This document shows positions 2 through 39,305 of a stretch of DNA of 39,305 nucleotides, one piece after another; positions within the stretch are counted from its first letter, which is position 1; each line of letters begins with the position of its first letter. Source of the DNA: a virus (lineage: Duplodnaviria > Heunggongvirae > Uroviricota > Caudoviricetes); the IMG/VR virus record IMGVR_UViG_2706794689_000009. The stretch is one strand, 5' to 3'. Both the position numbers and the translations under genes were made by a program. The notes beneath the pieces were generated by a model. It saw nothing but the letters and a program-made list of their open reading frames with translations, did not search any database and had not been told where the DNA came from.

Positions 2-199
2 CTATTACCTTCTTCAGAGAGCCCCCAGCTACTTCCTGTGACTCTCGATGCAGCTGCCGAACAGCCAGAATCGCTCGCAGAGGACCCGAAAACCCTCAGT
101 ATCAGCTGTGAGGTAACGTTCCGGCACGGGACGCTCCGCTTCAATGGCAATGTCAGCGAAAAGCTCCTGACTCTGCTGATACAGGAACTGAAGCGATGA
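2..199 (+). CDS. IS66-family tnpA (orf1), 3' fragment; 5' end lies outside the window
   Basis: Open frame runs from the window edge to TGA at 197-199, overlapping the ATG of the next gene in an ATGA arrangement typical of IS66 orf1/orf2 coupling. Family assignment rests on context only. Confidence 0.45.
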   Translation, partial: LLPSSESPQLLPVTLDAAAEQPESLAEDPKTLSISCEVTFRHGTLRFNGNVSEKLLTLLIQELKR

Positions 200-519
200 T
201 CCCGTTACCTTCCGGGATCAAAATTTGGCTGGTTGCCGGTATCACCGATATGAGAAATGGCTTCAACGGCCTGGCTGCGAAAGTACAGACGGCGCTGAAA
301 GACGATCCCATGTCCGGCCATGTTTTCATTTTCCGGGGCCGCAGCGGCAGTCAGGTTAAACTGCTGTGGTCCACCAGTGACGGACTGTGCCTCCTGACCA
401 AACGGCTGGAGCGTGGGCGCTTCGCCTGGCCGTCAGCCCGTGATGGCAAAGTGTTCCTTACACAGGCGCAGCTGGCGATGCTGCTGGAAGGTATCGACTG
501 GCGACATATAACCAGGTGA
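196..519 (+). CDS. tnpB: IS66-family accessory protein TnpB (orf2)
   Basis: 107-aa translation MIPLPSGIKIWLVAGITDMRNGFNGL...GHVFIFRGRSG...DGKVFLTQAQLAMLL matches the conserved IS66 Orf2 signature as I recall it. Size and ATGA overlap with the upstream frame fit. Confidence 0.85.
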   Translation: MIPLPSGIKIWLVAGITDMRNGFNGLAAKVQTALKDDPMSGHVFIFRGRSGSQVKLLWSTSDGLCLLTKRLERGRFAWPSARDGKVFLTQAQLAMLLEGIDWRHITR

Positions 520-521
520 AT

Positions 522-680
522 CATTTGATACCGACAAGGGGTTTAGTGAAAGGAGGTGAAATCACCTGTAAGATACTGAAATAAAACAGGTGATGGCTAG
601 ATGTGCGGATAAGGTCTATTTGATACCGATTGTGCAATAATTAGTCATTTATTATAAAATCGGCAACTCATTTGATACTG
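522..680 (+). repeat. Left-end transposase-binding repeats, three copies of CATTTGATACYG (about 522-533, 616-628, 667-680)
   Basis: Directly visible repeated 12-14 nt motif. The reverse complement recurs three times at the right end (39031-39100). This is analogous to the L1-L3 and R1-R3 MuA binding sites of Mu. Confidence 0.6.
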
Positions 681-752
681 TGGTTTTAGTCTTTTAAGGC
701 GTTCCAAACAATGCGAAATACTCGATATAGTGCAAAATGCGGGCTAATGCTA

Positions 753-1298
753 TTAACCCGCTTTTGGTTCTACCGCGTTAGATTTGCGACTTCTCTCAGT
801 TTCTTCCAAAATCTCTCTGACGCGTTCGTCAGACATACCTTCAAGCTGTAATGCAGCTATTCTTTTCCTTCCTTCTAAGCGGATTAGATCTTGATTTTCA
901 GGCTCTAACAACCGAGCTAAGTACTTGGCTCCATTCAGAACCAAATTTTTCGATAGCTGCTCTAAGTCTTTTTCATCAAGTGCGCTGATAATCGTCATAA
1001 TTATCTTCTTGCTTTCATCTTGATTTTCCTTGATCTCACACCGATTCACTTGTGATGCATCACTGAATCCACATAGCCACTCAACACTTACTCCTTCGAT
1101 AGACGCAATCTGAAGGGCGACACTTAAGGATGGCTCAGTGCCACGAGACAGATAATTGTTTAGTGTTGAAAATGAAAGCCCCCAATCTCTTGCTGCAGCT
1201 CTGACGCTGCGGGAGCCAATCAGCCTTTTCAGACGCTCAGCAATGCTTTCTTTTCTACCACCAGGAAAAGAAAGAGATGTTGTTGTTTGCTTGTTCAT
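753..1298 (-). CDS. Prophage repressor (Mu c-like, HTH DNA-binding)
   Basis: 181-aa ORF divergent from ner/A/B at the left end. The N-terminal region RLKRLIGSRSVRAAARDWGLSFSTLNNYLSRG resembles an HTH. Position matches the Mu c repressor. Confidence 0.75.
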   Translation of the reverse strand: MNKQTTTSLSFPGGRKESIAERLKRLIGSRSVRAAARDWGLSFSTLNNYLSRGTEPSLSVALQIASIEGVSVEWLCGFSDASQVNRCEIKENQDESKKIIMTIISALDEKDLEQLSKNLVLNGAKYLARLLEPENQDLIRLEGRKRIAALQLEGMSDERVREILEETERSRKSNAVEPKAG

Positions 1299-1430
1299 TT
1301 TCTTTTCTTCCTATCAATTTGAAATTATTAACTTTTAGTGTTGTCAGCAACCATTGATCCACAATAGACAAAAGAAAGATGTTTTTTTTGCTTTACATGA
1401 AGCAGAAGTGGATCAATACTTATATCAAAC

Positions 1431-1454
1431 TTGATAACTAAGTTTAGTTATCAA
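1431..1454 (+). promoter_or_regulatory. Perfect palindromic operator candidate TTGATAACTAA-gt-TTAGTTATCAA in the repressor/ner divergent region
   Basis: 11-bp perfect inverted arms with a 2-bp spacer, about 30 bp upstream of the ner start. A second inverted pair TGATCCAC/GTGGATCA lies at about 1354-1415, and a TTTACA -35-like hexamer near 1392. Likely early promoter/operator region. Confidence 0.5.
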
Positions 1455-1483
1455 ATTTCGTAACTTTTTAGGATAGATGAATC

Positions 1484-1714
1484 ATGGCGAGAAATGAAGT
1501 TAAGCCTGATTGGCATCCTCAAAGAATTTTGGGGGAAGTCAGAGCCAGAGAAGGAAGCATGAGGGCGCTGGCCCGTAAAGCTGGCGTGGGTCAGAACAAT
1601 CTGTACAACGCGGTATACCGCCATGTTCCCAAGTATGAGGGGATTATCGCGGAATGCCTGGGGGTGCCGCCCGAGGAGATTTGGCCCAGCCGCTACATTC
1701 GTAAGGTCGCGTAA
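1484..1714 (+). CDS. ner: Ner-like DNA-binding early regulator
   Basis: 76 aa. Conserved motifs DWHPQRILGEVRAR, NNLYNAVYRHVPKYEGIIAECLGVPPEEIWPSRY match the Mu Ner/Nlp family. Sits immediately upstream of the transposase. Confidence 0.9.
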   Translation: MARNEVKPDWHPQRILGEVRAREGSMRALARKAGVGQNNLYNAVYRHVPKYEGIIAECLGVPPEEIWPSRYIRKVA

Positions 1715-1716
1715 TT

Positions 1717-3804
1717 ATGTTTGCTTCAGTTAAAGAACTGGTTGGATTACCGGGGATGCCGGGAACGGAGCAAGGCGTTCGCTATTCAATCAGGAAGTAT
1801 GCAACCAGCGAAACCAGCAGACGCCGCAAGAAAGGCGCTAAAGGTTTTGAATACAGCATTGACTGTTTACCTGAAGTGACACAGCAGGCATTACGCGAAC
1901 GTTATGCCCTGCAACTGATGACGCAAAAAGCCGATGAATCACCGGCTCCGGTGGTGACAAAGGCCAGACGCTCGTCTGCCGTGGTTGATGCGGTGGAGGC
2001 ATATCGCGGATCACCACAACTGATGGTCGAACGCCTCAATGCCCTGACTGAAAACCAGCGCCAGGTGGCAGACGCACGCATTGCGATCGTCAGTGAGGTG
2101 CTGAAATTCACGCAACAACCCGGTTTCAGCTGCGCTAAAGCTATCCGGTTCCTCGTTAACAGCCTGGCACGATCACAACTGGACGAGCGCATTGTGGCAA
2201 TGGTTGAGACGGCGAACGCCAAAAAGGGAAACAGCCGCGCGTTGAGTGAAATCACGCTGAAACGCTGGATTGCGGCCTTTAACAAGGCACAGAACGCCGC
2301 TGAACGCCTGCTTTTACTGGCACCGGGTAAACGCCAGGAAATAAAAGCCGAAGATATTAACTGGCTGCCCGAATTTCTGGCGCAGTATCGCCAGTCAAAC
2401 GGCCGACCAATGACCGAGGCTTACGAGGATTTTGTTGCTGAATGGCAGCACCGGCACGCTGATGAGCCTTATATGCTCGATATCATGCCCTCTTATGACA
2501 CCATTCGCCGCGCAATGAAGAAACTGCCGGAAGTGGTGAAACAAAAAGGCCGGGTAACTGGCAGTGAATACCGTCAGCTTGAGGGATTCACGCGCCGCGA
2601 CTGGTCCAGAATGCCGGTGAATTATGTCTGGATTGGTGACGGTCACGGCATGAAGCTGAAATGCGCGCACCCGGTTCACGGGCGGCCATTCGCACCGGAA
2701 GTGACCTTTGTTATCGACGGTGGCACGCGCTTTGTGGTGGGCTGGAGCCTTGACCTGGCTGAAAATGTTTTCGCCGTAGCCGGTGCCATACAGCACGGTA
2801 TTCGCCATCATGGCAAACCGTTTCTGTATTACTCGGATAATGGCTCCGGGGAAACCGCCGACGTCCTGGATAAGGAGATTGTGGGGATACTGCCACGACT
2901 GGGGATTAATCACCCGACAGGGATTGCCGGTAATCCGCAGGGACGGGGCATTATCGAACGGCTTAACCGCACATTACCGATGCGCATAGCCCGTAAATAC
3001 CGCACCTATTTCGGGAAAGGAGCAGATCGCGAGACGTTACGTAAAACCAACCGCGATTTACGCTCGGCATTCAGTGCCCTGCAACAGGGCAAACGGCTGA
3101 ACGCCCGGCAGCAGTCAGCGATGCGTGATTTACCGTCCTGGTCTGAACTGATTGATGCCATTCGTGACGGTGTTGAGTGGTACAACAACCGGCCGCACGA
3201 TGAATTACCCATGAAGCCGAACGGTAAACATTACAGCCCGGCGGAGTTCAGAAAAAAACGCCTGGCGGAAGAGGACACGGAAATTGAATGGCTGTCCGAT
3301 GTTGAACTGCGGGATATGTTCCGGCCGATGGTGGAGCGCCCTGTAAGACGCTGTGAAATACGCTGGCTGAATAATATTTACTACGCGCCCGAGCTGCGTG
3401 ACGAGCATGGCCGTAAGGTACTTATCAGCTATGACATTCATGATGCCGAACGAATTACCGTGCGCCGCCCGGATGGCAGCGTGATTTGCGAGGCGGTATG
3501 GGACGGCAATAAACGCGAAGCCTTCCCTGTCAGCGCGGAATACTACAAACAGCAGCAGCGCCTTAAAGGCATGCGTAAACGCGCAGAGGAAAAAATCCGT
3601 GATGCCGAGGATGAGGTTGTCAACGTGCTGGAGCACAAGCCGCAGGAGCCCTGGCTGGAAAACATATACCGCCCTGTGGGTAATACGGTGACCGTTCAGC
3701 AACCGGTCGCTGACGATGAACCTGATGAAGAATACGAGCGTAATTTCCAGCGGGGATTGCAACTGCTCGAAGCGAAATTAAAAGAAAGTGATCCGCTGGC
3801 CTGA
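1717..3804 (+). CDS. A: Mu-type DDE transposase A (MuA)
   Basis: 695-aa ORF with N-terminal DNA-binding region and central integrase-like core (VWIGDGHGMKLK...SDNGSGETADV). Position after ner. Confidence 0.93.
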   Translation: MFASVKELVGLPGMPGTEQGVRYSIRKYATSETSRRRKKGAKGFEYSIDCLPEVTQQALRERYALQLMTQKADESPAPVVTKARRSSAVVDAVEAYRGSPQLMVERLNALTENQRQVADARIAIVSEVLKFTQQPGFSCAKAIRFLVNSLARSQLDERIVAMVETANAKKGNSRALSEITLKRWIAAFNKAQNAAERLLLLAPGKRQEIKAEDINWLPEFLAQYRQSNGRPMTEAYEDFVAEWQHRHADEPYMLDIMPSYDTIRRAMKKLPEVVKQKGRVTGSEYRQLEGFTRRDWSRMPVNYVWIGDGHGMKLKCAHPVHGRPFAPEVTFVIDGGTRFVVGWSLDLAENVFAVAGAIQHGIRHHGKPFLYYSDNGSGETADVLDKEIVGILPRLGINHPTGIAGNPQGRGIIERLNRTLPMRIARKYRTYFGKGADRETLRKTNRDLRSAFSALQQGKRLNARQQSAMRDLPSWSELIDAIRDGVEWYNNRPHDELPMKPNGKHYSPAEFRKKRLAEEDTEIEWLSDVELRDMFRPMVERPVRRCEIRWLNNIYYAPELRDEHGRKVLISYDIHDAERITVRRPDGSVICEAVWDGNKREAFPVSAEYYKQQQRLKGMRKRAEEKIRDAEDEVVNVLEHKPQEPWLENIYRPVGNTVTVQQPVADDEPDEEYERNFQRGLQLLEAKLKESDPLA

Positions 3805-3886
3805 AATAAAAAAATAACCCGAGGGGTGACTCAGGTTATTTGAGGTTTCAGTCTCGGAGAATGCTGTCTCAAGCGAGGTGAATAAT

Positions 3887-4819
3887 ATGACCGATATTAA
3901 CGATGTAATCAAGACCATTGATGAACTTATTGATGGCGGCGTACTGACGCAGTATGCCATCGCCAGAGAGGCGGGAATTTCCGACGGCACATTATCGGCT
4001 TTCCGTAAGGGAAAATATAAAGGCGATAACGCTGCTGTGGCTGCTTCCCTGCGCTCCTGGTATGAGAACTGGAATAAACAAAGCGCACTGCCGGAACCGC
4101 CGCAGTTTGTGGAAACTCAGACAGTCCAGGAGCTGCGCGCACTGTTTCAGGCGGTTCGCCTGATGGGCTGTATTAACGTTATTGTGGGCGTACCGGGTGT
4201 GGGTAAAACGGCCACTGCCCGTAATTACTGCCAGGAGCAACCAAACACCTGGATGATCACCCTGTCACCCGCGCACTCCAGCGTCACGGAGTGTCTGCTG
4301 GAGCTGGCCGATGCGCTGGGGATTGATTACACCCGCGCGAACAAAGGGGCATTATCCCGCGCCATCCGCCGTCGCCTGATGGGAACGCGTGGACTGGTGA
4401 TTGTGGATGAGGCGGATCATCTTGGTATTGACGGTCTGGAGCAACTCCGGGCAATTCAGGACGCCACGGGGATCGGGATGGTGCTTATTGGTAACCCGCG
4501 CGGATTGTTTAAAGGTGGACGCCGCGCCTTTGATGATTTATCGCGCCTGTTCAGCCGTCTTGCCCGTACAAAACAACTTCGCAAGGCCAAAAAGGCGGAT
4601 GTGCTGGCCATTGCCATGGCGTGGGGGATCAGTGGTGAGGCCGAGCTGGCCGTCATGCAGGCTATCGCTGAAAAGCCGGGAGCGTTACGCGTTCTGACAC
4701 ATACGCTTAACCAGGCGTGGCTCACCGCCAGCGGTGAAGGCGCGGCGCTGACAGAAAAACATATTAATGCGGCCTTTAAAGAGGTTTATACCAACCCTGA
4801 ATTACTCTCACAGGTGTGA
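3887..4819 (+). CDS. B: Mu transposition ATPase B (MuB, AAA+ target DNA activator)
   Basis: Walker A GVPGVGKT and Walker B LVIVDEADHL. Overall co-linearity with Mu B (LPEPPQFVETQTV, KPGALRVL). ATG 3887 chosen after a GAGGTG ribosome-binding site; the frame opens at GTG 3878. Confidence 0.9.
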   Translation: MTDINDVIKTIDELIDGGVLTQYAIAREAGISDGTLSAFRKGKYKGDNAAVAASLRSWYENWNKQSALPEPPQFVETQTVQELRALFQAVRLMGCINVIVGVPGVGKTATARNYCQEQPNTWMITLSPAHSSVTECLLELADALGIDYTRANKGALSRAIRRRLMGTRGLVIVDEADHLGIDGLEQLRAIQDATGIGMVLIGNPRGLFKGGRRAFDDLSRLFSRLARTKQLRKAKKADVLAIAMAWGISGEAELAVMQAIAEKPGALRVLTHTLNQAWLTASGEGAALTEKHINAAFKEVYTNPELLSQV

Positions 4820-4821
4820 TT

Positions 4822-5043
4822 ATGGCGGTATTTAATATTCCTGATATTTACGGACGCTTTTACCTGGTTAATTTCGATAACGTGAAGGTGATTTCACTGG
4901 CCGAAAATAAAGAATGTGGCGATTTACTTTTTGAATTTAATGACCGCACACGAATGGTGATATCTGCCGGACTTGATCGCGAAGGTGCGACAGAAGTTTA
5001 CAGCGGAATATGCCGTTCTGTTGGTGCGAAACAAGTCAGCTAA
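4822..5043 (+). CDS. Small early protein in the Mu kil position (about 74 aa)
   Basis: ORF overlaps the B stop codon; size and position match Mu kil. Call is by position only, no recognisable motif. Confidence 0.45.
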   Translation: MAVFNIPDIYGRFYLVNFDNVKVISLAENKECGDLLFEFNDRTRMVISAGLDREGATEVYSGICRSVGAKQVS

Positions 5044-5310
5044 ATGAGGTGTTATATGAATATGCAATCCTGCGGTAACAAAATGAATTTATTCGACTCC
5101 CTGAACAGCGCGCGCCGTCTGACCGAACTTGCCGGTGCGGTACTGGAACGCAGTAAGCGCTATCCGCAACGTTTTGCACTGAAAACCACGCCGCCGGTAG
5201 GCAACGTGCAGGGAACCGGTGAAATTGAAATCACCATACAGACCAACGGCCTGCGCCGCCGTGTGAAGGCCACCCGCATCAGCGGCTGCACGGTTTACTG
5301 GGAGGTGTGA
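5044..5310 (+). CDS. Hypothetical early-region protein
   Basis: 88-aa ORF on the same strand, contiguous with neighbours; multiple possible ATG starts (5044/5056/5062). Confidence 0.45.
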   Translation: MRCYMNMQSCGNKMNLFDSLNSARRLTELAGAVLERSKRYPQRFALKTTPPVGNVQGTGEIEITIQTNGLRRRVKATRISGCTVYWEV

Positions 5311-5311
5311 G

Positions 5312-5593
5312 GTGAAAAAAAATCTCATTGCATGGGCGTGGTCGAGTGGTCTTATTGAGTTTGGTTACGTCCTGCCGGAAGGTGCATTGCCGATAGTTGC
5401 CGGAAAGCCTGCCACGGTACGGCATGTGATTGAGGTTATGGCGCGTCATGGACGTGATGAACAGGAGCAGTTACTGGTTCCGGGGATACCGGAAGCGGTG
5501 ACGGAGGAAGAAGCCTTTAATGCCATGATTCGGTTCTGCCGTGAGGTTAGACGCCGGGTCAGTTATCCAAACAGAACGAGGACCAGAGGATGA
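5312..5593 (+). CDS. Hypothetical early-region protein (GTG start)
   Basis: 93-aa ORF tightly packed between neighbours; its end overlaps the next start. Confidence 0.4.
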   Translation: MKKNLIAWAWSSGLIEFGYVLPEGALPIVAGKPATVRHVIEVMARHGRDEQEQLLVPGIPEAVTEEEAFNAMIRFCREVRRRVSYPNRTRTRG

Positions 5594-5862
5594 GTAAAGT
5601 CGTACGCATTATTTTCGAATACAAGGAAGATGTTATCTGCAAAAACTCTGATGGCAGCACGCACAGAGGGGTAAGTCTGGATATACGTTCAACCGGAATA
5701 AAGAAGAAAGATAATGGACCCGCCATGATTTTTGGGGTGGTTATGCTGGCAGAAAGCAGAAACTTCGCAGAGTTTGTGGCAATGAAAGCCAGTGCATTCA
5801 TGAAAGACAGAGGCATGGCTTCCGGGGTTATTAACGGTAATGAATTTAATCAACAGGGGTAA
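5590..5862 (+). CDS. Hypothetical early-region protein, tandem paralog copy 1
   Basis: 90 aa, begins MSKVVRIIFEYKEDV. The next gene has a near-identical N-terminus. Confidence 0.55.
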   Translation: MSKVVRIIFEYKEDVICKNSDGSTHRGVSLDIRSTGIKKKDNGPAMIFGVVMLAESRNFAEFVAMKASAFMKDRGMASGVINGNEFNQQG

Positions 5863-5866
5863 TTCC

Positions 5867-6160
5867 ATGAGCAAAGTACGCGTTATTTTTGAATTTAATC
5901 ATGTTTCGCATGACGAAAAGTTGGCAGGCAATGACTGTGTTGAAGTGCATGAAAAGATTGGAGTGGATGTGAAAACAGAACGTGATACGGATAACAGGCC
6001 GACGTCACTCTGTGACGTTTATGCAAGTATTCTCCAGTATCACAGTCCTGCAATTATTCAGTTTCTCTCAGCGGAATTTCAGGCATCTGCACAGTCTTTT
6101 GGAGCGGATGCCATCATTAAACGCCACCGCGTGCATAAAGCATCAGGCACACTGCAATAA
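5867..6160 (+). CDS. Hypothetical early-region protein, tandem paralog copy 2
   Basis: 98 aa from ATG 5867, begins MSKVRVIFEFNHV. Starts 5 nt after the stop of copy 1, with an AGGGG ribosome-binding site. Confidence 0.55.
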   Translation: MSKVRVIFEFNHVSHDEKLAGNDCVEVHEKIGVDVKTERDTDNRPTSLCDVYASILQYHSPAIIQFLSAEFQASAQSFGADAIIKRHRVHKASGTLQ

Positions 6161-6171
6161 GGAAAAACAAA

Positions 6172-6702
6172 ATGGCTAAACGCGTTACAAAATTAAAGGC
6201 CGCAGCCGAGGCGGCACCGCAGACCCGGGAAGAAGTCAGCCGTGATATCCGCACCCTGGGAGATATTCAGCGAGAGGCGCTGCGCCTGGAAACGGCGATG
6301 AATGACGAAGTGGCAGAAATCACCGCCCGTTATACGCCGCAGATTGAAAATCTTAAAAAGCAAATCAAAGTGCTTTTTAAAGGGATTCAGGACTGGTGCA
6401 AAACCAACCGTGATGAGCTGACGAACGGCGGCAAAACCAAAACAGCCAATCTGACCACCGGAACGGTGTCATGGCGGCTGGGAACGCCATCATGCAGCGT
6501 CAGCCGTGATGTGGAAGGTGTGATTGAAATGCTGCGCCGTATGGGGCTTGAGCGTTTCATCCGCACGAAAGAGGAAGTGAACAAGGAAGCCGTCCTGGCG
6601 GAGCCGGATGCTGTGAAAGGCATTGCCGGTATCAAGGTGAATAAAGGCGCTGAAAGTTTTTATGTCGAGCCTTTTGAACAGGACGCCGGACTGAATAAAT
6701 AA
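6172..6702 (+). CDS. gam: Gam-like host-nuclease inhibitor (DNA-end binding)
   Basis: 176 aa. Coiled-coil N-terminus and motifs TGTVSWRLGTPS, FIRTKEEVNKEA typical of the Mu Gam family. Position in the early region fits. Confidence 0.8.
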   Translation: MAKRVTKLKAAAEAAPQTREEVSRDIRTLGDIQREALRLETAMNDEVAEITARYTPQIENLKKQIKVLFKGIQDWCKTNRDELTNGGKTKTANLTTGTVSWRLGTPSCSVSRDVEGVIEMLRRMGLERFIRTKEEVNKEAVLAEPDAVKGIAGIKVNKGAESFYVEPFEQDAGLNK

Positions 6703-6847
6703 CACCGCATTAATCAATTAAATATCACTTCATTTTAATTATGGCGCTCGCGTCAGGGGACTGCTTGCGCCTGAAAACAGAAAATAAGGGTTAAGAAATA
6801 TGAAATACGTTTATATCGTCATTAATAATGTGGTGGGGAAATAAATC

Positions 6848-7896: not shown

Positions 7897-7899
7897 TGC

Positions 7900-8780: not shown

Positions 8781-8916
8781 GCAAATTGTTGAATGTCCCA
8801 CCTGTGGAAATGAGGACCCGGAGTATCTGAAAGAGTGCCCACATTGTGGTGAGATAAAATGTAACCACTGCGATATGGGCGACGACACTGCATGTATAAA
8901 TTGTGAGGATGAATAA
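8773..8916 (+). CDS. Zinc-ribbon mini-protein (47 aa, four Cys pairs)
   Basis: Hand translation MDEQIVECPTCGNEDPEYLKECPHCGEIKCNHCDMGDDTACINCEDE. ATG overlaps the upstream stop. Below the size cut-off of the ORF track. Confidence 0.4.
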   Translation: MDEQIVECPTCGNEDPEYLKECPHCGEIKCNHCDMGDDTACINCEDE

Positions 8917-8917
8917 T

Positions 8918-9425: not shown

Positions 9426-9455
9426 AGATTTTTCCTTTTATGTTAATTGACATGG

Positions 9456-9487: not shown

Positions 9488-9495
9488 CCACGATA

Positions 9496-32076: not shown

Positions 32077-32957
32077 TGTTTCATGTTGATAATAATTCCG
32101 GCGTGGCGAATATGCCTGCGCTGGCACCGGCGCAGAGTAATACCACCACCTGGTTTACCGAAGGTGACGGACAAAAAGGTATCAGCTGGATTGGTCAGGA
32201 CTGGCTGAATATTCTCCAGGCCGAACTGCTGAATATTCTGGCTGAAGCCAGTATTCAGCCGGATAAGGCGCAGTTAAACCAGCTTACGCTGTCCATTAAA
32301 GCCATTATCGCTGCGAATGCCTTTTCCCGGAAAAATAACCTGAAAGAAATTGCTGATGCCGGTGCGGAGGCCCAGCGTCTGGCCCGTGGTTATCTTGGTC
32401 TGGGGACGCTTGCCACAAAAAACAGTCTTGGTCCCGCTGACGTTAATGCCCTGGCGAAGGATCAGAATCTCGCCGACCTGGAGAATAAGGGAACCGCCCG
32501 TAATAATCTGGATGTTTACAGCAAAAGCGAAGGTGATAACCGTTACCTGCGCAGGGAGCAGAACGGCGCAGACATTCCGGATAAAGGGGCTTTTATCGAT
32601 AACGTCGGTTTACGGGAAACGGTAAACAGGGCGGCGAATGCCCTGCCATCGGACGGCACCGCCGTTGCCGCGAACAGGCTGGCAAATGCCCACACAATTA
32701 ATGGTGTTCCCTTTGACGGGACGCAGGATATCACTATCTCATCAGGAACAGTAACCGCCATAAGACTGGGGTCGGTGACCGCACATATGCCCGGAACATG
32801 GGAAAGCTGGGATCTGAATCTGGGGGGCGGCAATGTTCTTACCGGAATTAAAGTACAGGATGTCGGTAAGAATACGGCAGATAACGTCGGCGGCGTGTAT
32901 TACCGGCCGTTGCAGTATCTGTTAAATGGAGCATGGGTGACGGCTGCAAGTATATAA
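32076..32957 (+). CDS. Tail fibre protein S: constant part up to about 32698, then current-orientation variable C-terminus
   Basis: 293 aa. The crossover motif [12 protein letters not shown] at residues 208-218 coincides with a 30-bp inverted repeat. Confidence 0.75.
32699..32728 (+). repeat. gix-like inversion crossover site, left copy
   Basis: TAATGGTGTTCCCTTTGACGGGACGCAGGA; its reverse complement occurs at 33811-33840 with one mismatch. Confidence 0.65.
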
Positions 32958-32988
32958 TGATATTCAGAAGGCCTTCCGGCCTTCTTTA

Positions 32989-33471
32989 TTACTGTGGCTG
33001 CTCAGGCCATTTAATGGCGTTAAATTCAGCTTCTGTTTTAATGGCGGGTAGTTCCATTTTCTTCACCTGACTGATGTATGCCATCCATTGGGTAAGTGCT
33101 GCTCTGTCTTCATCGCTGATGGTGCCCAGTTGTAGCTCCGTTCTCCAGTCATTAATTTTTTCATATGCCTGATTAAGATATGACTGGCGCATTGCTTCCA
33201 GTTTTCTTGCGTAGTTAACCGGAATACGGGAGATTATGCCATTATCAAACTTCCAGTTTCCTGAAATATCCGTGCCTTCAGGGAGTTCATCGACCTCAAC
33301 CACAGAAAACCCCGCAGGATACAGCGCCGAGGCGTCCTGTGATATTGAGCAGATAACGCCGCTGTCAGGTGTTATGCAAAGTTTATATTTTTTGGTGAAT
33401 AATGGCAGGGATTCGTAGAAATCCTTACCATCTTCACTCTGGAAATACTGAACATTATTACCATATGGCAT
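32989..33471 (-). CDS. Tail fibre assembly protein (U'-like), inside the invertible segment
   Basis: 160 aa, minus strand. The conserved C-terminal motif ISDEDRAALTQWMAYISQVKKMELPAI...KWPEQPQ is typical of tail fibre assembly chaperones. Confidence 0.75.
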   Translation of the reverse strand: MPYGNNVQYFQSEDGKDFYESLPLFTKKYKLCITPDSGVICSISQDASALYPAGFSVVEVDELPEGTDISGNWKFDNGIISRIPVNYARKLEAMRQSYLNQAYEKINDWRTELQLGTISDEDRAALTQWMAYISQVKKMELPAIKTEAEFNAIKWPEQPQ

Positions 33472-33736
33472 ATNNNNNNNNNNNNNNNNNNNNNNNNNNN
33501 NNNNNNNNNNNNNNNNNNNNNNNNNNNNNNNNNNNNNNNNNNNNNNNNNNNNNNNNNNNNNNNNNNNNNNNNNNNNNNNNNNNNNNNNNNNNNNNNNNNN
33601 NNNNNNNNNNNNNNNNNNNNNNNNNNNNNNNNNNNNNNNNNNNNNNNNNNNNNNNNNNNNNNNNNNNNNNNNNNNNNNNNNNNNNNNNNNNNNNNNNNNN
33701 NNNNNNNNNNNNNNNNNNNNNNNNNNNNNNNNNNNN

Positions 33737-33840
33737 CTGCTCCCAGCCTGATATCCTGGATATATCGGGAATCCGCATCCTGCTGTGTTATACCAGAAGT
33801 GATGTTTATGTCCTGCGTCCCGTCAAAGGGAACCCCATTA
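33737..33840 (-). CDS. Alternative tail fibre variable segment (Sv'-like), fragment visible between N-masks
   Basis: Minus-strand translation [34 protein letters not shown] starts at the right crossover repeat and shares [11 protein letters not shown] with S. Confidence 0.5.
33811..33840 (-). repeat. gix-like inversion crossover site, right copy (may extend into the N-mask)
   Basis: Reverse complement of 32699-32728 with one mismatch. Confidence 0.65.
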
Positions 33841-34090
33841 NNNNNNNNNNNNNNNNNNNNNNNNNNNNNNNNNNNNNNNNNNNNNNNNNNNNNNNNNNNN
33901 NNNNNNNNNNNNNNNNNNNNNNNNNNNNNNNNNNNNNNNNNNNNNNNNNNNNNNNNNNNNNNNNNNNNNNNNNNNNNNNNNNNNNNNNNNNNNNNNNNNN
34001 NNNNNNNNNNNNNNNNNNNNNNNNNNNNNNNNNNNNNNNNNNNNNNNNNNNNNNNNNNNNNNNNNNNNNNNNNNNNNNNNNNNNNNNNNN

Positions 34091-34620
34091 CGGCGCTACA
34101 AAGAAATGCGCTGGAATGTGCAGGATGTGAGCTGTTTTTCGAAGACAGAATAAGCGGTAAGACAAGGGAGCGTCCCGGACTTAAACGCGCATTAAAGCGA
34201 CTCCGGCCAGGGGATACCCTGCTGGTCTGGAAACTGGATCGCCTTGGACGCAGTATGCAGCACCTTGTCCTTTTAACAGAAGAACTCCGGCAACGCGGCG
34301 TTAACTTCCGCAGCATTACGGACAATATTGATACATCCACTCCCATGGGACGTTTCTTTTTCCATATAATGGGCGCGCTGGCGGAAATGGAGCGGGAACT
34401 CATTATTGAACGTACACGCGCGGGTCTTGCTGCTGCCCGTGCTCAGGGGCGTCATGGCGGCAGACCTCAGAAACTGACAGAGAAAGAGCGGGAGCAAATC
34501 GCCCGTTTGCTGGCTAATGGCGAGTCCCGTAAACAAATCGCACTGATATTTGATATTGGCCTTTCCACCCTTTATCGTTATTTTCCTGCCTCACCAGCTC
34601 CGTCACCAAAAGTACCGTGA
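34091..34620 (+). CDS. gin: Serine recombinase DNA invertase (Gin/Hin/Cin/Pin family); 5' end inside N-mask
   Basis: Visible translation LQRNALECAGCE...DRPGLKRALKRL..GDTLLVWKLDRLGRSM.HL...ELRQRGVNFRSITDNIDTSTPMGRFFFHIMGALAEMERELIIERT..GLAAARAQGR.GGRP is near co-linear with Mu Gin. The catalytic serine region is masked. Confidence 0.9.
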
Positions 34621-34705
34621 CGCTTTTTTGAATTTCCGCAAAACACATATTTTTCAGCGGTCGCTATTCTGACTCTGTTTAATTCAGAAACAGGCAGAAA
34701 AGACG

Positions 34706-36760
34706 ATGTCAGACTCCAAGTGGAAAATGCTCTCCGCCATGCCCGGAGAGTTTTCAGTCAAGGTTGCCGGTGGCACGGTGGCATTTATTGAAAGCCCTTT
34801 CCGCCCTTCGGGTAATAAAGGGGGGATCACCTTCGCAGACTGCGTGATCCGCTTCAGCACGAAAGAGCCATTATGGGTAATGCCGGTATCCGGTAATCCC
34901 AGTGCAGAAATCACCAGTTCAGGCGTGACTGGCATCATTCCAATCACATCTGACGTGGCCGGAACGCTCACGCCCTCCGACTGGAATGCACCGGATAACG
35001 CCGGGCCTTCCGGTAGCACGAATGGCAGCAGTTCAGAGCCGGAATATTACTTTGTTGTCATTCTCGCGGGTCAGTCAAATGGCATGGCCTACGGCGAGGG
35101 GCTGCCGTTACCGGATTCGTTTGACCGCCCGGACCCACGCATTAAGCAACTGGCACGCCGCAGTACGGTAACGCCCAACGGTACGTCGTGTACATACAAC
35201 GACATCATTCCGGCAGACCACTGCCTGCATGATGTTCAGGATATGAGCGGGATAAACCACCCGAAAGCTGATCTGGCAAAAGGCCAGTACGGGACTGTCG
35301 GTCAGGGGTTGCATATTGCCAAAAAACTGCTTCCCTATATCCCACAGAATGCCGGGATACTTCTGGTGCCCTGTTGTCGTGGCGGGTCAGCATTCACCAC
35401 TGGAGCCGACGGCTCATTCAGTGAGGCCAGCGGTGCTTCCGCTGATTCTTCACGCTGGGGGGCCGGTAAACCTCTGTATCAGGACCTGGTAAGCCGCACC
35501 AAAGTCGCGCTGGCGAAAAACCCGAAAAACAAACTTCTGGCTGTGGTCTGGATGCAGGGAGAGGCAGACCTTGCCTCAGGAAGCCAGCAGCATAATAGTT
35601 TATTCACGGCCATGGTTCAGCAGTTCAGAACTGACCTGGCTCCGCTTGCTGCGCAGTGCGTGAGTGGAAATGCCACCACGGTGCCGTGGATTTGCGGTGA
35701 TACCACGTATTACTGGAAAAACGCTGGCACCGATAAATATGAGGCAGTATACGGTGGCTACAAAGGCAAGGAAGCACAGAAAATTTTCTTTGTACCGTTC
35801 CTGACGGATGAGAATGGACAGAGCACGCCAACGAATGCTCCGGCGGAAGACCCGGATATTGTGGCTGTCGGGTATTACGGTGCAGCATCCCGAACCCAGG
35901 GCAGTTTTGTTTCGACACAGCGTGACAGCCATTTCAGCTCATGGGCACGCAGGGGCGTCATTTCAGACCGTCTGGCCTCAGCTATTATGCTCCATGCAGG
36001 GCGCACGGCTGAACTGATGCGTGGGCAGACCGTGACACCACCGGATGAGAAGCCGTCACCTGATACACCATCAAAACCGTCCACGCCACCCGCAGACACC
36101 ACGACGATGAGTACGCTATTTGCTTACCGGGCATCTGAGTCTGAAGGACGGTTGACACCACAGGGTTGGGCTGCCGGAGGTGGCAAGGCTCAAATCGTGG
36201 ATGATGCCGGAGCCAGCGGGGGTAAGGCAATGAAACTGACCAAGGAAACAGGAAGAGCCCCCTGGTACCTTGAGCATGATGCTGGTAATGGTGCGGACCT
36301 GCTGGGTAAAGGTGGTCTTGTCAGTTGTCGTTTTAAACTCGATGGCGCGCTTACGGCTAATCAGTACGCACTGGCGCTGTACTGGCCGGTTTCTGCCCTG
36401 CCGCAAGGGGTTACTCTGGAAGGAAATGCCGGTCATAACCTGCTGGCATCGTTCTACGTACAGAGCGATGCCACAGACCTTAACGTGATGTATCACAAAG
36501 GAAACACGGCGCAGAACACGAAGCTGGGGTCATTCGGCGCATTTAATAACGAATGGCATACGCTGGGCTTCCGTTTTGCCGGTAACAACAGTATTGAGGT
36601 GACGCCGGTCATTGATGGTAAGGACGGGACACCATTCATGCTGTCGCAGTCTCCGGTCGGCACGTTTACGGCAGACAAGTTGCGCGTGACCGATATCACT
36701 AAAAATGCGACTTACCCGGTACTGATTGACAGTATCGTGGTGGAAGTGAATAACGCGTAA
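34706..36760 (+). CDS. Putative SGNH/SASA-family esterase (sialate O-acetylesterase-like) with Pro/Thr/Ser linker and C-terminal beta-rich domain
   Basis: 684 aa. Motif VVILAGQSNGMAYGEG (GQSN block of the SASA/SGNH fold), linker PPDEKPSPDTPSKPSTPPADTTT, then a roughly 220-aa C-terminal domain. Not part of the Mu backbone. Confidence 0.55.
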   Translation: MSDSKWKMLSAMPGEFSVKVAGGTVAFIESPFRPSGNKGGITFADCVIRFSTKEPLWVMPVSGNPSAEITSSGVTGIIPITSDVAGTLTPSDWNAPDNAGPSGSTNGSSSEPEYYFVVILAGQSNGMAYGEGLPLPDSFDRPDPRIKQLARRSTVTPNGTSCTYNDIIPADHCLHDVQDMSGINHPKADLAKGQYGTVGQGLHIAKKLLPYIPQNAGILLVPCCRGGSAFTTGADGSFSEASGASADSSRWGAGKPLYQDLVSRTKVALAKNPKNKLLAVVWMQGEADLASGSQQHNSLFTAMVQQFRTDLAPLAAQCVSGNATTVPWICGDTTYYWKNAGTDKYEAVYGGYKGKEAQKIFFVPFLTDENGQSTPTNAPAEDPDIVAVGYYGAASRTQGSFVSTQRDSHFSSWARRGVISDRLASAIMLHAGRTAELMRGQTVTPPDEKPSPDTPSKPSTPPADTTTMSTLFAYRASESEGRLTPQGWAAGGGKAQIVDDAGASGGKAMKLTKETGRAPWYLEHDAGNGADLLGKGGLVSCRFKLDGALTANQYALALYWPVSALPQGVTLEGNAGHNLLASFYVQSDATDLNVMYHKGNTAQNTKLGSFGAFNNEWHTLGFRFAGNNSIEVTPVIDGKDGTPFMLSQSPVGTFTADKLRVTDITKNATYPVLIDSIVVEVNNA

Positions 36761-36776
36761 GCAGGATAAAAAAATG

Positions 36777-36809
36777 CCGCCGGTAAGGGAAAACAAGAAA
36801 CCGGCGGCA
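36777..36809. terminator. GC-rich hairpin GCCGCCGG-(17 nt)-CCGGCGGC flanked by an A-run on plus and a T-run on minus
   Basis: 8-bp perfect stem immediately after the esterase stop. A U-tract follows only in minus orientation, so it is probably a minus-strand or bidirectional terminator. Confidence 0.4.
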
Positions 36810-36904
36810 AAAAGATCGTTATATCCAAAGCAAAAAATGCAGTGCACCTTTTTACCTAACAGATATTACCGGTGTCAACACCATGTCAATAATTGGGAGG
36901 GATA

Positions 36905-37087
36905 ATGACATTTTTACAGCTTATTTTATTGTATTTCTGCACGGCAGTATGTGCGTTATATCTGGTGAGTGGTGGTTATAAGGCCATCAGAAATTATGTT
37001 CGCCGCAAAATTGAGGACGCAGCAGCTGAAAAACTCAGTAAAACAGCGCAGGTAACTCCGCTCCCAAAAGACCCGACCCAGCCCTGA
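36905..37087 (+). CDS. Small single-pass membrane protein (about 60 aa)
   Basis: GGGAGGG ribosome-binding site then ATG. TM helix FLQLILLYFCTAVCALYLV followed by a basic tail. Confidence 0.4.
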   Translation: MTFLQLILLYFCTAVCALYLVSGGYKAIRNYVRRKIEDAAAEKLSKTAQVTPLPKDPTQP

Positions 37088-37122
37088 TTGCAGGGCTTTA
37101 TTCCCGCATAAGGAGGATATAC

Positions 37123-37377
37123 ATGCCAGAAATTAAAGGCACCGTCACTGAAGACCTGGTAAAACAGGCACTGTATTCCGGTGAAGTAAATAAGTTGCTG
37201 AAAGCGCAGGTCCGCAAGGATTTTGAGGCACAAATCGACACTTACGTTGATGAAGTGCTGGCAAAACTTATTGGGCCAGCAGTTGCGGCCAGTGATGCTG
37301 ATAATGAGCCGAAAACCGACGCGCAGCCAGAGCAACCAGACCCGGCTCAGCCCGGAACTGACAGTACCATGATGTAA
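37123..37377 (+). CDS. Small acidic protein (84 aa)
   Basis: Near-consensus TAAGGAGGA Shine-Dalgarno 7 nt before the ATG. Helical N-terminus, acidic Pro-rich tail. Confidence 0.45.
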   Translation: MPEIKGTVTEDLVKQALYSGEVNKLLKAQVRKDFEAQIDTYVDEVLAKLIGPAVAASDADNEPKTDAQPEQPDPAQPGTDSTMM

Positions 37378-37385
37378 CAATACAA

Positions 37386-37463
37386 ACCGGTGGTGTCCTC
37401 TGCCGGTTTGACACTAATGAAAACATCTTTGCCGCTATCCAGCCATATGTAATCGCTGGATAG
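37386..37463. terminator. Two hairpins between convergent genes (AAACCGG...CCGGTTT, and 9-bp inverted repeat CTATCCAGC...GCTGGATAG)
   Basis: Inverted repeats directly visible between the 37123-37377 plus-strand gene and the 37545-37838 minus-strand gene. Confidence 0.35.
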
Positions 37464-37544
37464 TATTTCGTATTCAGAAATATAGCTGCTTATGGAGCAG
37501 TCAATCCTGCTTCCCCATCCGGGCAGGCAAATGAACCGGTATCA

Positions 37545-37838
37545 TTAGTCCGATTCACGCTTTTGTAGAATCGTTCCCAGAATGCTATACAGCTCATTAG
37601 CCTGTTGCTCCATCATTGAGACGGAGGCTATACGGTGCAAAGTGATTTCAGGAGGTGGCACACCTCCATCTTCTTGCTGTGGAGGAAAAACATAAGATTT
37701 AATAAAAAAGTTGAAGCATATGAACTCTCCCGCACTCGAACTGTATTTGCAGGCATCTGAATAATCGGAAAAATAATCATTATAGATTTCCGCATTTTCA
37801 ATCATTTTTCGATTTCTCGTCGTTACATGATTGTCCAT
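37545..37838 (-). CDS. Hypothetical AT-rich protein, divergent from com-mom
   Basis: 97-aa ORF with markedly lower GC than the phage backbone. Its start faces the GATC-containing mom control region. Confidence 0.45.
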   Translation of the reverse strand: MDNHVTTRNRKMIENAEIYNDYFSDYSDACKYSSSAGEFICFNFFIKSYVFPPQQEDGGVPPPEITLHRIASVSMMEQQANELYSILGTILQKRESD

Positions 37839-37961
37839 AGCAGCCTCTTACGCTGGCAATTAACCAATTGACTTCTATAAATTAGTTGATTTGTTTGCTT
37901 TGCGGTATTCAAATGTACAATCATTCAGCACTTATGCGTTACAGCACCGTTTAAAATTAGT

Positions 37962-38047
37962 GATCAAACTCATAAATTTTCGCTAATGACATTTCGTGTT
38001 ATTTGTTGTATCAATTAAATAAATCAAATCGATCGTTTTTGTCGATC
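37962..38047 (+). promoter_or_regulatory. mom upstream control region with three GATC (Dam) sites at about 37962, 38031 and 38044
   Basis: AT-rich intergenic region immediately upstream of com with GATC sites clustered, including the palindromic GTCGATCGAT. In Mu, the mom promoter is controlled by Dam methylation of three upstream GATC sites (OxyR binding). Confidence 0.45.
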
Positions 38048-38094
38048 GATTGAGTGATAAAGATATCAACAACAAAGCAGGAGGTTATGCGGCC

Positions 38095-38295
38095 ATGTAT
38101 CGAAACATACGGTGCCGACATTGTAACAAGCTACTGGCACGAGCCAGCTTCAGTTATCTGGAAGTTAAATGTCCGCGCTGTAAAACCCTCAATCAAATCA
38201 CATCTCAGAGCGCCACAGAGCACCCCACATACACAAGGAAATCCTGTCGTGGGGAACAGAAAGCAAGTTACATCCCGTATCATCAGCACGCCTGA
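38095..38295 (+). CDS. com: Com zinc-finger translational activator of mom
   Basis: From ATG 38095 (AGGAGG 10 nt upstream): [35 protein letters not shown]...EHPT, co-linear with Mu Com including the CxxC-(16)-CxxC zinc finger. Confidence 0.8.
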
Positions 38296-38986
38296 ACTTA
38301 TTCACTATAACGACAATATCGTCGGTTATGGCTCCCGTGAGTTACGGGTTGAGACAATAAGTTGCTGGCTGGCCCGGCTGGTCGTCGTCAATAAACATTA
38401 CAGCCATCGTTTCGTAAATAATTCCTACCTTCATCTGGGCATATTTTCAGAACGGGAGCTGGTTGGCGTAATGCAATGGGGTTATGCCCTTAATCCAAAC
38501 AATGGTGCACGCGTCGTAACTGGCACGCAGAACCGCGAATATATGGAGCTTAACCGGTTATGGCTGCATGACTGTATGCCGAGAAACTCCGAATCAAGGG
38601 CAATCAGTTACGCGCTCAAACTAATCAGACAACTTTATCCGCAGGTGCAGTGGGTTCAGTCGTTTGCAGATGAGCGTTGTGGCTGTCTTGGTGTCGTGTA
38701 CCAGGCAAGCAATTTTGATTATGTAGGCAGTCATGAAACAACATTCTATGAACTTGATGGCGAGTGGTATCACGAGATTTGCAAGAATGCAATCAAACGA
38801 GGAGGACAGCGAGGTGAACATCTGCGGGCTAATATCGACAGAGCCAGTGTTCATAAATTCCGTCAGTTTCGTTACATCCGGTTTCTGGACAAGAGAGCCA
38901 GAAAACGCCTTAACACAAAGCTATTCAAAGTCCAGCCTTACCCAAAACCACAAACAGTTAAAACTGGTTTGAAAGAGAGTGAATGA
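38249..38986 (+). CDS. mom: Mom-like DNA modification protein (start inferred as GTG 38249)
   Basis: Long frame overlapping the 3' end of com as in Mu; about 245 aa from GTG 38249. An AAGGAA ribosome-binding site and the GTG lie inside a stem CCCCAC...GTGGGG (about 38223-38254), resembling the Mu mom translation-inhibition structure that Com opens. No sequence-level identification of Mom was possible. Confidence 0.6.
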
Positions 38987-39030
38987 ACGCTTAAAAACTC
39001 ATTCTAAAACTCAAAAGAAAAGCGCCGATT

Positions 39031-39100
39031 TAGTATCAAATAAGTTGCGTATCGGCGTTTTTCAGCGGTATCAAATGAAATGCAAATCGGTATCAAAAAA
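39031..39100 (-). repeat. Right-end transposase-binding repeats, three copies of the reverse-complement motif (about 39031-39042, 39066-39077, 39088-39100)
   Basis: TAGTATCAAATA, CGGTATCAAATG, CGGTATCAAAAA are inverted relative to the left-end CATTTGATACCG copies. Confidence 0.6.
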
Positions 39101-39217
39101 ATCGCCGCGCTATAGACAGCCTAAGCGGCTGCTGACCTCCCTGACCATGCTGTAAATCTCTTTATCCTGGTTGTCACAGAATAAGCCCGGTAAAATACGG
39201 GCTTATGAACGACATCT

Positions 39218-39305
39218 CTTCTGACGACATCTTCCTGCTGAAACAGCGCCTTGCCGAACGTCAGTTGAAAACGAAACCGCTGCTGAAATCCCTGGAAAGC
39301 TGGCT
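39218..39305 (+). CDS. Probable IS66-family transposase TnpC, 5' fragment continuing beyond the window
   Basis: ATG 39218 preceded by a 7-bp hairpin. Translation MNDISSDDIFLLKQRLAERQLKTKPLLKSLESW is open to the window edge. Assignment rests mainly on the IS66 tnpA/tnpB at the other side of the prophage. Confidence 0.4.

What the first reader, a model, noticed from the sequence alone, without database searches (positions are those of the whole stretch)
196..39305. Mu-like prophage inserted inside an IS66-family element
IS66 tnpA/tnpB end at 519, and the prophage left-end repeats begin at 522. On the far side, a probable tnpC start appears about 100 bp after the right-end repeats. This looks like a transposable phage that landed between tnpB and tnpC, splitting the IS. 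I could not find an unambiguous 5-bp target-site duplication, so a rearrangement or replicative transposition between two IS copies is possible.
Basis: partly seen in the sequence, partly recalled or inferred. Interest (0 to 1): 0.5.

Follow-up and report, generated by a model that had tools for sequence, protein, structure and literature searches.

The report
Sp18-like Mu-type prophage inside IS66 tnpB
A complete-looking transposable (Mu-like, Sp18-type) prophage sits inside the tnpB gene of an IS66-family insertion sequence as an ordinary simple insertion; the expected 5-bp duplication was missing because this phage lineage duplicates 4 bp and has TA rather than CA ends.

Summary
Alignment to intact ISEc8/ISEc22-type copies shows IS sequence running to window 506 and resuming at 39115. 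IS bases GACA lie on both sides (503-506 and 39115-39118). The phage (507-39114) is therefore inside tnpB, 37 nt before its stop, not between tnpB and tnpC. The stop at 517-519 is phage-encoded.

The 4-bp duplication is what this lineage normally makes. Twelve other independent insertions of the same or related E. coli prophages, including Sp18 of O157 Sakai, each carry an unambiguous 4-bp duplication. Two empty sites were verified. No rearrangement between IS copies is needed.

The termini are 5'-TA...TA-3' here and 5'-TG...TA-3' in Sp18, not Mu's TG...CA. The transposase is only about 23% identical to MuA.

The IS also has a separate 1,080-bp in-frame tnpC deletion from 39260.

The window holds four masked N runs, so phage length and some ORFs are approximate.

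A Mu-like phage inside a mobile element is ordinary. The 4-bp duplication and TA termini are a modestly interesting variant that I did not find described.

The parts
1..199 (+). 3' part of IS66-family tnpA (ISEc8/ISEc22-like)
   Evidence: Collinear with L001 3001-3199, inside annotated tnpA 2819-3199.
196..506 (+). tnpB, first 103 codons plus 2 nt. The ORF runs on into phage DNA to a phage-encoded stop at 517-519.
   Evidence: Pfam TnpB_IS66 E=1.2e-37. Identity to L001 ends at 506. Intact TnpB reads ...GIDWRQPKRLLTSLTML, while the window reads ...GIDWRHITR*.
503..506 (.). Left copy of the 4-bp target duplication GACA
   Evidence: L001 3503-3506 is present on both sides of the phage.
507..39114 (+). 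Sp18-like transposable prophage, 38,608 positions including 1,026 masked N. Termini are 5'-TATAACCAGGTGAATCATTTGATACCG ... CGGTATCAAAAAAATCGCCGCGCTATA-3'.
   Evidence: The same ends sit at different chromosomal sites in L002-L007, L009/L013 and L011/L014. Collinear at 99.0-99.9% with the prophage of strain HH35.
507..690 (+). Left end with three putative transposase-binding repeats (cores at 524, 619, 671), spaced like Mu L1 / L2-L3
   Evidence: The end is conserved in relatives.
753..1298 (-). Repressor (c-like, HTH)
   Evidence: Pfam HTH_3. Annotated 'transcriptional regulator' at the same position in relatives.
1484..1714 (+). Ner-like early regulator
   Evidence: Pfam HTH_35 E=1e-21.
1717..3804 (+). 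DDE transposase (A), 695 aa
   Evidence: Pfam Mu-transpos_C and HTH_Tnp_Mu_1. PDB: MuA I-alpha domain 6.8e-6, retroviral integrase cores about 2e-4. About 23% identity to MuA.
3878..4819 (+). MuB-type AAA+ target-capture ATPase (B)
   Evidence: Pfam Phage-MuB_C E=8e-25, AAA_22.
13412..33471 (+). Late region: terminase, portal (DUF935), MuF-like, protease, major head gpT, sheath, tube, tape measure, baseplate, tail fibre and its assembly gene (the last on the - strand)
   Evidence: ORFs match RefSeq-annotated genes of 99%-identical prophages position by position.
34091..34620 (+). Gin-like serine recombinase of the invertible tail-fibre segment. Its first ~43 nt are masked by the N run 33841-34090.
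   Evidence: Homologous position of 'recombinase family protein' in L003 34083-34655.
34706..36760 (+). 684-aa accessory protein with SASA acetylesterase and DUF6645 domains
   Evidence: Pfam.
38095..38295 (+). com
   Evidence: Pfam Zn_ribbon_Com E=7.5e-13.
38249..38986 (+). mom
   Evidence: Pfam Mom E=7.8e-78.
39000..39114 (-). Right end with three binding-site repeats (cores at 39033, 39068, 39090), ending ...GCGCTATA-3'
   Evidence: An identical right end is seen in all 15 right-end examples, in L002-L007, L012-L015 and in Sakai Sp18.
39115..39118 (.). Right copy of the 4-bp target duplication GACA
39115..39155 (+). Displaced last 41 nt of tnpB (including the GACA copy and the stop)
   Evidence: Collinear with L001 3503-3543.
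39205..39305 (+). tnpC start (39205-39259) joined in frame to tnpC codon 379 onward (39260-39305), a 1,080-bp internal deletion between 18-bp repeats. It runs off the window.
   Evidence: The window encodes MNDISSDDIFLLKQRLAE|RQLKTKPLLKSLESW, against the intact 512-aa TnpC of L020.

Best explanation
An Sp18-type transposable phage integrated by DDE transposition into one copy of an ISEc8/ISEc22-like IS66-family element.

Inferred mechanism:
- The phage transposase (1717-3804) binds the three repeats at each end.
- With the MuB-type ATPase (3878-4819), it joins the 3' ends of the phage DNA to target phosphates 4 bp apart, inside tnpB.
- Repair of the gaps duplicated GACA.
- The repressor (753-1298) then holds the prophage silent.

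Shown directly:
- the exact junctions and the 4-bp duplication;
- the same duplication length at other sites;
- the end sequences and the gene content.

Inferred but not tested:
- the chemistry, meaning a 4-bp stagger and use of terminal TA-3' ends;
- that integration followed infection rather than intracellular transposition;
- that the prophage is still active.

The insertion truncates TnpB and separates tnpA-tnpB from tnpC by 38.6 kb. The IS copy was (or became) defective anyway, through an independent in-frame 1,080-bp deletion that removes TnpC residues 19-378.
For: Junctions:
- The left flank equals the IS to window 506, and the right flank equals it from 39115.
- The flanks overlap by GACA. 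Flank identities are 99.4% and 99.3%.

Lineage-typical 4-bp duplications at independent sites:
- TACG, AACA, CGCC, GACG and CATG.
- CGCA and TGTG.
- CACC in a TG-left-end relative.
- TAAA for Sakai Sp18 in sorM.
- AGAA and AACA from draft-genome contig pairs.

Empty sites verified:
- the IS66 copy;
- K-12 ybaE, with an exact 37-nt match to the 4-bp reconstruction.

In every case the base just outside the 4 bp differs between the two sides, while the phage's terminal T and A are constant.

The same phage at 99.6-99.8% identity sits at six or more different loci, so TA/TA ends are functional.

Sp18 DNA is efficiently packaged (PMC2669165). Sp18-like phages are often found inside other mobile elements (PMC10132054).
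Against: - No biochemical evidence for a 4-bp stagger exists here.
- Only 145 nt of collinear IS flank (39115-39259), plus 46 nt beyond the tnpC deletion, are visible on the right. Because IS copies are near-identical, later recombination between IS copies outside the window cannot be excluded.
- 1,026 positions of the prophage are masked, so intactness of gp16, Mor, the tail-fibre assembly region and the invertase start cannot be judged.
- The exact insertion was not found in 5,426 complete E. coli genomes or in PLSDB plasmids, so the host replicon is unknown.
Confidence: 0.9

Rival explanations
1. The prophage is flanked by halves of two different IS66 copies, brought together by replicative transposition or by recombination.
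For: The right-hand IS part carries a tnpC deletion, which shows that this IS has a history of rearrangement. E. coli genomes hold a median of 3 and up to 36 copies of this IS.
Against: The two flanks abut in the IS with an overlap of exactly 4 bp. That is the duplication length at 12 other independent insertions. Intramolecular replicative transposition would leave one copy of the target bases per junction, with no direct repeat around a single prophage. The tnpC deletion lies 145 nt away, is bounded by its own 18-bp repeats, and needs no phage involvement.
Confidence: 0.05
2. The duplication is really 5 bp, as in Mu, with one base mutated. Equivalently, the terminal T and A are target-derived rather than phage bases.
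For: Mu and most described relatives give 5 bp, and B3 gives 6 bp (PMC8705779). One site (O157 Z1825, AGCT/AAGCT) can be read either way.
Against: At 13 sites (this window plus 12 others) the would-be fifth base is always T on the left or always A on the right, whatever the target base. The target base is C or G in the IS and T or G in K-12 ybaE. Thirteen identical 'mutations' are not credible. The binding-site repeat sits at the same distance, positions 18-26, from T1 at both ends. The target pattern N-R-Y-N is symmetric about the middle of 4 bp.
Confidence: 0.03
3. The prophage is a dead remnant, and the junction is an old scar carried along by the IS.
For: Masked stretches hide about 1 kb. 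The tail-assembly gene is 93 nt shorter than in strain HH35. No record in the complete E. coli genomes or the PLSDB plasmids searched holds this insertion.
Against: Outside the masks, the prophage is collinear with full-length prophages at 99.0-99.9% identity. The transposase (695 aa), MuB-type ATPase, repressor, com and mom reading frames are intact, and the other structural ORFs match the annotated genes of those prophages. Both ends are complete.
Confidence: 0.15

Closest known systems
Prophage Sp18 of E. coli O157:H7 Sakai and the Sp18-like 'Mu-like phages' of STEC
   Same: Same gene order. Same right end (...GCGCTATA). Same binding-site repeats. Same left end apart from its second base. 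Sp18 also has a 4-bp duplication (TAAA in sorM). Related inserts in Stx phages are 92% identical over 85-87% of the 24.5-kb query, window 507-25000. Found at many loci and often inside other mobile elements (PMC10132054).
   Different: The left terminus is TA here and TG in Sp18. The repressor allele differs: relatives align over only 30-45% of the first 1.2 kb. The insertion site here is IS66 tnpB.
Bacteriophage Mu / D108 (Muvirus)
   Same: Transposable phage layout: c, ner, A, B, gam, mor, late genes, invertible tail-fibre segment with an invertase, and com-mom at the right end. Three transposase sites per end, with an L1 / L2-L3 spacing.
   Different: DNA similarity is limited to about 72% over roughly 600 bp. 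A sequence search of PDB finds only MuA's N-terminal domain, not its core. Mu has TG...CA ends and a 5-bp duplication, against TA...TA and 4 bp here.
Leptospira TA-TA transposable prophages (WETA1; PMC8705779)
   Same: Natural transposable prophages whose ends carry TA instead of the canonical TG-CA, with evidence of recent transposition.
   Different: They have a B3/Tn552-type transposase and a 6-bp duplication, infect an unrelated host, and have unrelated genomes.
Pseudomonas D3112-like phages and phage VW-6B
   Same: These carry the nearest transposases among isolated phages: VW-6B 47%, D3112-like about 30% over about 89% of the length. The terminase region is 77% identical at DNA level to some Pseudomonas phages.
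   Different: Different hosts and different morphogenesis modules. I did not establish their duplication length.
ISEc8 / ISEc22 (IS66 family)
   Same: The flanks are 99.3-99.5% identical to annotated copies with tnpA-tnpB-tnpC. The last 64 nt are 100% identical to ISEc22-family tnpC.
   Different: tnpB is split by the phage, and tnpC lacks 1,080 bp (codons 19-378).

Membership tests
Transposable (Mu-like) phages | DDE transposase plus AAA+ target-capture ATPase next to a repressor/ner switch at the left end | tested here: met
   Pfam Mu-transpos_C, HTH_Tnp_Mu_1, Phage-MuB_C, HTH_35, HTH_3.
Transposable (Mu-like) phages | Same element at many unrelated loci, each flanked by a short target duplication | tested here: met
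   13 independent sites with direct repeats.
Transposable (Mu-like) phages | Genome of about 36-40 kb with Mu-type head and tail gene order | tested here: met
   38.6 kb. RefSeq annotation of 99%-identical prophages.
Transposable (Mu-like) phages | Terminal 5'-TG...CA-3' | tested here: not met
   5'-TA...TA-3' here, and TG...TA in Sp18 and other relatives.
Phage Mu sensu stricto (Muvirus) | 5-bp target duplication | tested here: not met
   4 bp at 13 sites. Two empty sites were verified.
Phage Mu sensu stricto (Muvirus) | Close sequence relationship to Mu/D108 | tested here: not met
   Only one match of about 600 bp at 72%. Transposase about 23% identical.
Sp18-like lineage of E. coli | Shared end sequences and collinear genome | tested here: met
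   Ends identical to Sakai Sp18 except position 2 of the left end. 92% identity over 85-87% of the 24.5-kb query (window 507-25000) to Mu-like inserts of STEC Stx phages. A full-length alignment to Sp18 itself was not made.
IS66 family (ISEc8/ISEc22-like) | tnpA-tnpB-tnpC organisation with overlapping tnpA/tnpB | tested here: met
   Flanks collinear with annotated copies L001 and L020. ATGA overlap at 196-199.
IS66 family (ISEc8/ISEc22-like) | Complete DDE transposase TnpC | tested here: not met
   In-frame loss of codons 19-378. The remainder lies beyond the window.
IS66 family (ISEc8/ISEc22-like) | Terminal inverted repeats and 8-bp target duplication of the IS | not testable with these tools
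   Both IS ends lie outside the window.

The most novel reading that the evidence does not exclude
Sp18-type transposable phages, found in 233 of 5,426 complete E. coli genomes searched, form a third mechanistic class beside Mu (5 bp, TG-CA) and B3 (6 bp, TG-CA). They join to targets with a 4-bp stagger, prefer N-R-Y-N, and use a TA-3' terminus at the right end. In one actively spreading sublineage, both ends are TA-3', in place of the near-universal CA-3' of this transposase superfamily. I found no description of this in the searchable literature. A 2021 survey states that all Mu- and B3-like ends described until then were TG-CA, with 5- or 6-bp duplications (PMC8705779).
Probability: 0.45. 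Interest if true: 0.5.

Novelty: new member of a known kind. Interest (0 to 1): 0.3.

Why it matters
The insertion itself is routine: it is one more Sp18-like prophage that has landed in another mobile element and disabled an already crippled IS66 copy.

The useful outcome is practical. Prophage-boundary tools and curators who expect TG...CA ends and a 5-bp repeat will misplace the ends of this common E. coli phage lineage. The Sakai annotation of Sp18, for example, starts one base in and ends five bases out.

For transposition biology, natural elements that work with TA-3' ends and a 4-bp stagger offer a comparison with MuA on two questions. The first is how the terminal dinucleotide is used. 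The second is how transpososome geometry sets duplication length.

Tried and rejected
- **Species-representative genomes.** A scan with a degenerate end pattern found nothing. No cross-species sample was obtained, and the second scan was not used.
- **M3 flgL empty site.** Verification in K-12 failed because the flgL alleles differ. ybaE worked instead.
- **Same-genome contig pairs.** Four pairs did not give matching flanks (2529292909, 2617270962, 2585427751, 2617271340). I attribute this to several prophage copies per draft genome and did not count them for or against.
- **Source replicon.** Searches for the exact insertion in complete E. coli genomes and PLSDB plasmids found none.
- **RNA genes.** ARAGORN and Rfam found nothing in the window, although PGAP marks a 'tRNA-OTHER' in relatives.
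- **Literature.** Searches for a 4-bp duplication in Sp18, Mu-like or D3112 phages found nothing relevant. The library lacks most subscription journals, so this is weak evidence of novelty.
- **Alternative end models.** I considered 5-bp and 6-bp readings, with ends shifted by 1 or 2 bases. They do not give direct repeats.
- **Apparent mosaic patches.** Patches that seemed to differ from strain HH35 turned out to be masked N runs.
Full report
**What is at the two ends of the window**

I aligned both flanks to an intact, annotated ISEc8-family copy. This is L001 from plasmid NZ_CP033633, with tnpA at 2819-3199, tnpB at 3196-3543 and tnpC from 3593.
- The left flank is collinear from window 1 to 506, with three mismatches.
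- The right flank is collinear from 39115 to 39259, with one mismatch.
- IS positions 3503-3506 (GACA) occur on both sides. The IS reads GGCGACAGCC, the left junction reads GGCGACA|TATAACC, and the right junction reads GCGCTATA|GACAGCC.

The phage therefore occupies 507-39114 and lies inside tnpB, 37 nt before its stop.
- The ORF 196-519 is TnpB residues 1-103 fused to four phage-encoded codons. It reads ...GIDWRHITR*, where the intact protein reads ...GIDWRQPKRLLTSLTML*.
- The rest of tnpB is at 39115-39155.
- tnpC starts at 39205.
- Pfam confirms TnpB_IS66 with E=1e-37.

**The phage**

Pfam finds the following:
- an HTH repressor at 753-1298 on the minus strand;
- a Ner-type protein at 1484-1714;
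- a 695-aa transposase with Mu-transpos_C and the Mu N-terminal DNA-binding domain at 1717-3804;
- a MuB-type ATPase at 3878-4819;
- Com at 38095-38295 and Mom at 38249-38986.

The motif TTTGATAC occurs three times in direct orientation within 172 nt of the left end and three times inverted within 82 nt of the right end. It occurs once in the remaining 38 kb. In both ends the first copy sits at positions 18-26 from the terminal T.

Outside four masked N runs, the prophage is collinear with the full-length prophage of strain HH35 at 99.0-99.9% identity. The N runs are at 9680-9932, 10338-10597, 33474-33736 and 33841-34090. ORFs that cross them are artefacts, and the length of 38,608 is approximate.

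**Which phage it is**

It is not Mu.
- Mu and D108 share only about 600 bp at 72% identity.
- The transposase is about 23% identical to MuA.
- A sequence search of PDB finds only MuA's I-alpha domain (1TNS, 6.8e-6). It also finds retroviral integrase cores, but not the MuA core.
- By tblastn, the nearest isolated phages are Pseudomonas VW-6B (47%) and D3112-like phages (about 30%).

It belongs to the E. coli lineage typified by Sp18 of O157 Sakai.
- 233 of 5,426 complete E. coli genomes hold a match to its left end.
- Mu-like inserts in STEC Stx phages are 92% identical over 85-87% of the 24.5-kb query (window 507-25000).
- Sp18 is reported to be efficiently packaged (PMC2669165).
- Sp18-like phages are reported at variable loci, 6 of 10 inside other mobile elements (PMC10132054).

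**Why no 5-bp duplication was seen**

Near-identical prophages (99.6-99.8%) sit at different loci. I read both junctions of each.

| Source | Insertion site | Duplication | Left end |
|---|---|---|---|
| This window | IS66 tnpB | GACA | TA |
| HH35 and PO06021 | MASE1 diguanylate cyclase gene | TACG | TA |
| Strain 600029 | ybaE | AACA | TA |
| AST46 | P2 capsid gene | CGCC | TA |
| S1-CAM-01-A | bcsA | GACG | TA |
| TOE17 | citD end | CATG | TA |
| M3 | flgL | CGCA | TA |
| CI5 | xdhA | TGTG | TA |
| Strain 6817 | SDR gene | CACC | TG |
| Sakai Sp18 | sorM | TAAA | TG |
| IMG genome 2529293218 | draft-genome contig pair | AGAA | TG |
| IMG genome 2548876695 | draft-genome contig pair | AACA | TG |
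| O157 Z1825 | RHS gene | AGCT or AAGCT (ambiguous) | TG |

- The ybaE empty site reconstructed under the 4-bp model matches K-12 exactly over 37 nt. The IS66 empty site is verified by L001 and L020.
- In every unambiguous case the base outside the four differs between the two sides, while the phage's terminal T and A never vary. A 5-bp reading would therefore need the same 'mutation' thirteen times.
- The 4-bp GACA repeat in the window is the normal scar of a simple insertion by this lineage.

**Termini**

All right ends examined read ...GCGCTATA-3'. This covers the 15 right ends plus those read. Left ends are TG in Sp18 and other relatives (9 of 14), and TA in the window's group. The TA/TA group occurs at six or more loci at 99.6-99.8% identity, so these ends work.

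Across the 13 duplications, position 2 is a purine in 13 of 13 and position 3 is a pyrimidine in 11 of 13. The pattern N-R-Y-N is symmetric about the centre of a 4-bp stagger. This observation is post hoc and the sample is small.

A 2021 survey states that all Mu- and B3-like ends described until then were TG-CA, with duplications of 5 bp (Mu) or 6 bp (B3). It presents TA-TA ends in Leptospira as new (PMC8705779). I found no paper describing the Sp18 ends or a 4-bp duplication, but the library omits most subscription journals.

**Second breakpoint**

From 39260 the sequence no longer follows the tnpC 5' region. Window 39242-39305 is 100% identical to ISEc22-family tnpC sequence lying 1,080 bp further downstream in intact copies. 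The junction sits in an 18-bp repeat, AACAGCGCCT[G/T]GCCGAAC, which encodes KQRLAE near the N-terminus and EQRLAE at residues 373-378. The window encodes MNDISSDDIFLLKQRLAE|RQLKTKPLLKSLESW, which is TnpC with residues 19-378 deleted in frame. This deletion needs no phage involvement and is a separate event.

**Rival readings**

- A junction between two different IS copies is disfavoured by the contiguous flanks and the lineage-typical duplication. Recombination between IS copies outside the window cannot be excluded.
- A dead remnant is disfavoured by intact reading frames and complete ends, but about 1 kb is masked.
- The exact insertion is absent from complete E. coli genomes and from PLSDB plasmids. 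The host is inferred to be E. coli or Shigella only from the phage's 99.8% identity to E. coli prophages.

**Verdict**

The case is an ordinary insertion of a known phage type into a known IS type. The 4-bp duplication and TA termini of the Sp18 lineage are a modestly interesting by-product, well supported by sequence and untested biochemically.

Noticed in passing
window 9680-9932, 10338-10597, 33474-33736, 33841-34090: Four runs of N (253, 260, 263 and 250 positions) mask parts of the gp16/Mor region and of the invertible tail-fibre and invertase region. The run lengths differ from the homologous stretches in strain HH35 (243, 249, 252 and 214 nt). ORFs called across them, and the phage length, are therefore unreliable.
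   Followed up: yes
window 39242-39305: tnpC carries an in-frame 1,080-bp deletion (codons 19-378, which remove the zinc-finger and DDE regions) between two 18-bp near-identical repeats. No record in the complete E. coli genomes searched shows this junction next to tnpB.
   Followed up: yes
window 1717-3804: The transposase's catalytic core matches retroviral integrase, IS481 and IS3 profiles better than it matches MuA's core in sequence searches. Only the N-terminal domain (1TNS) and the Mu-transpos_C barrel tie it to MuA.
   Followed up: partly
window about 17985-18064 (homologous to L003 17974-18053): RefSeq/PGAP annotates an 80-nt 'tRNA-OTHER' between the MuF-like and virion-morphogenesis genes in related prophages. 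ARAGORN and Rfam find nothing in the window.
   Followed up: partly
window 34706-36760: A 684-aa accessory protein with a SASA (sialate O-acetylesterase-type) domain and DUF6645 lies between the invertase and com/mom. It is followed by small DUF1378 and DUF826 genes, and is conserved in all relatives examined.
   Followed up: no
window 24388-24771: The tail-assembly gene is 93 nt (31 codons) shorter than in strain HH35, at a short repeated stretch around 24443-24466.
   Followed up: partly
L018/L019 (NC_002695.2 5040971-5079729): The Sakai record's Sp18 feature starts at the second phage base and ends five bases beyond the last one (the 4-bp duplication plus one more base). The published boundaries of 38,759 bp are therefore slightly off from the transposon ends defined here.
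   Followed up: partly
L005 (NZ_AP043639.1) and L007 (NZ_CP069093.1): Two of the comparison prophages carry large internal deletions: about 5.9 kb in AST46 and about 15 kb in TOE17. Both keep their ends and the 4-bp duplication. A third, S1-CAM-01-A, carries an ISKpn26 insertion.
   Followed up: no
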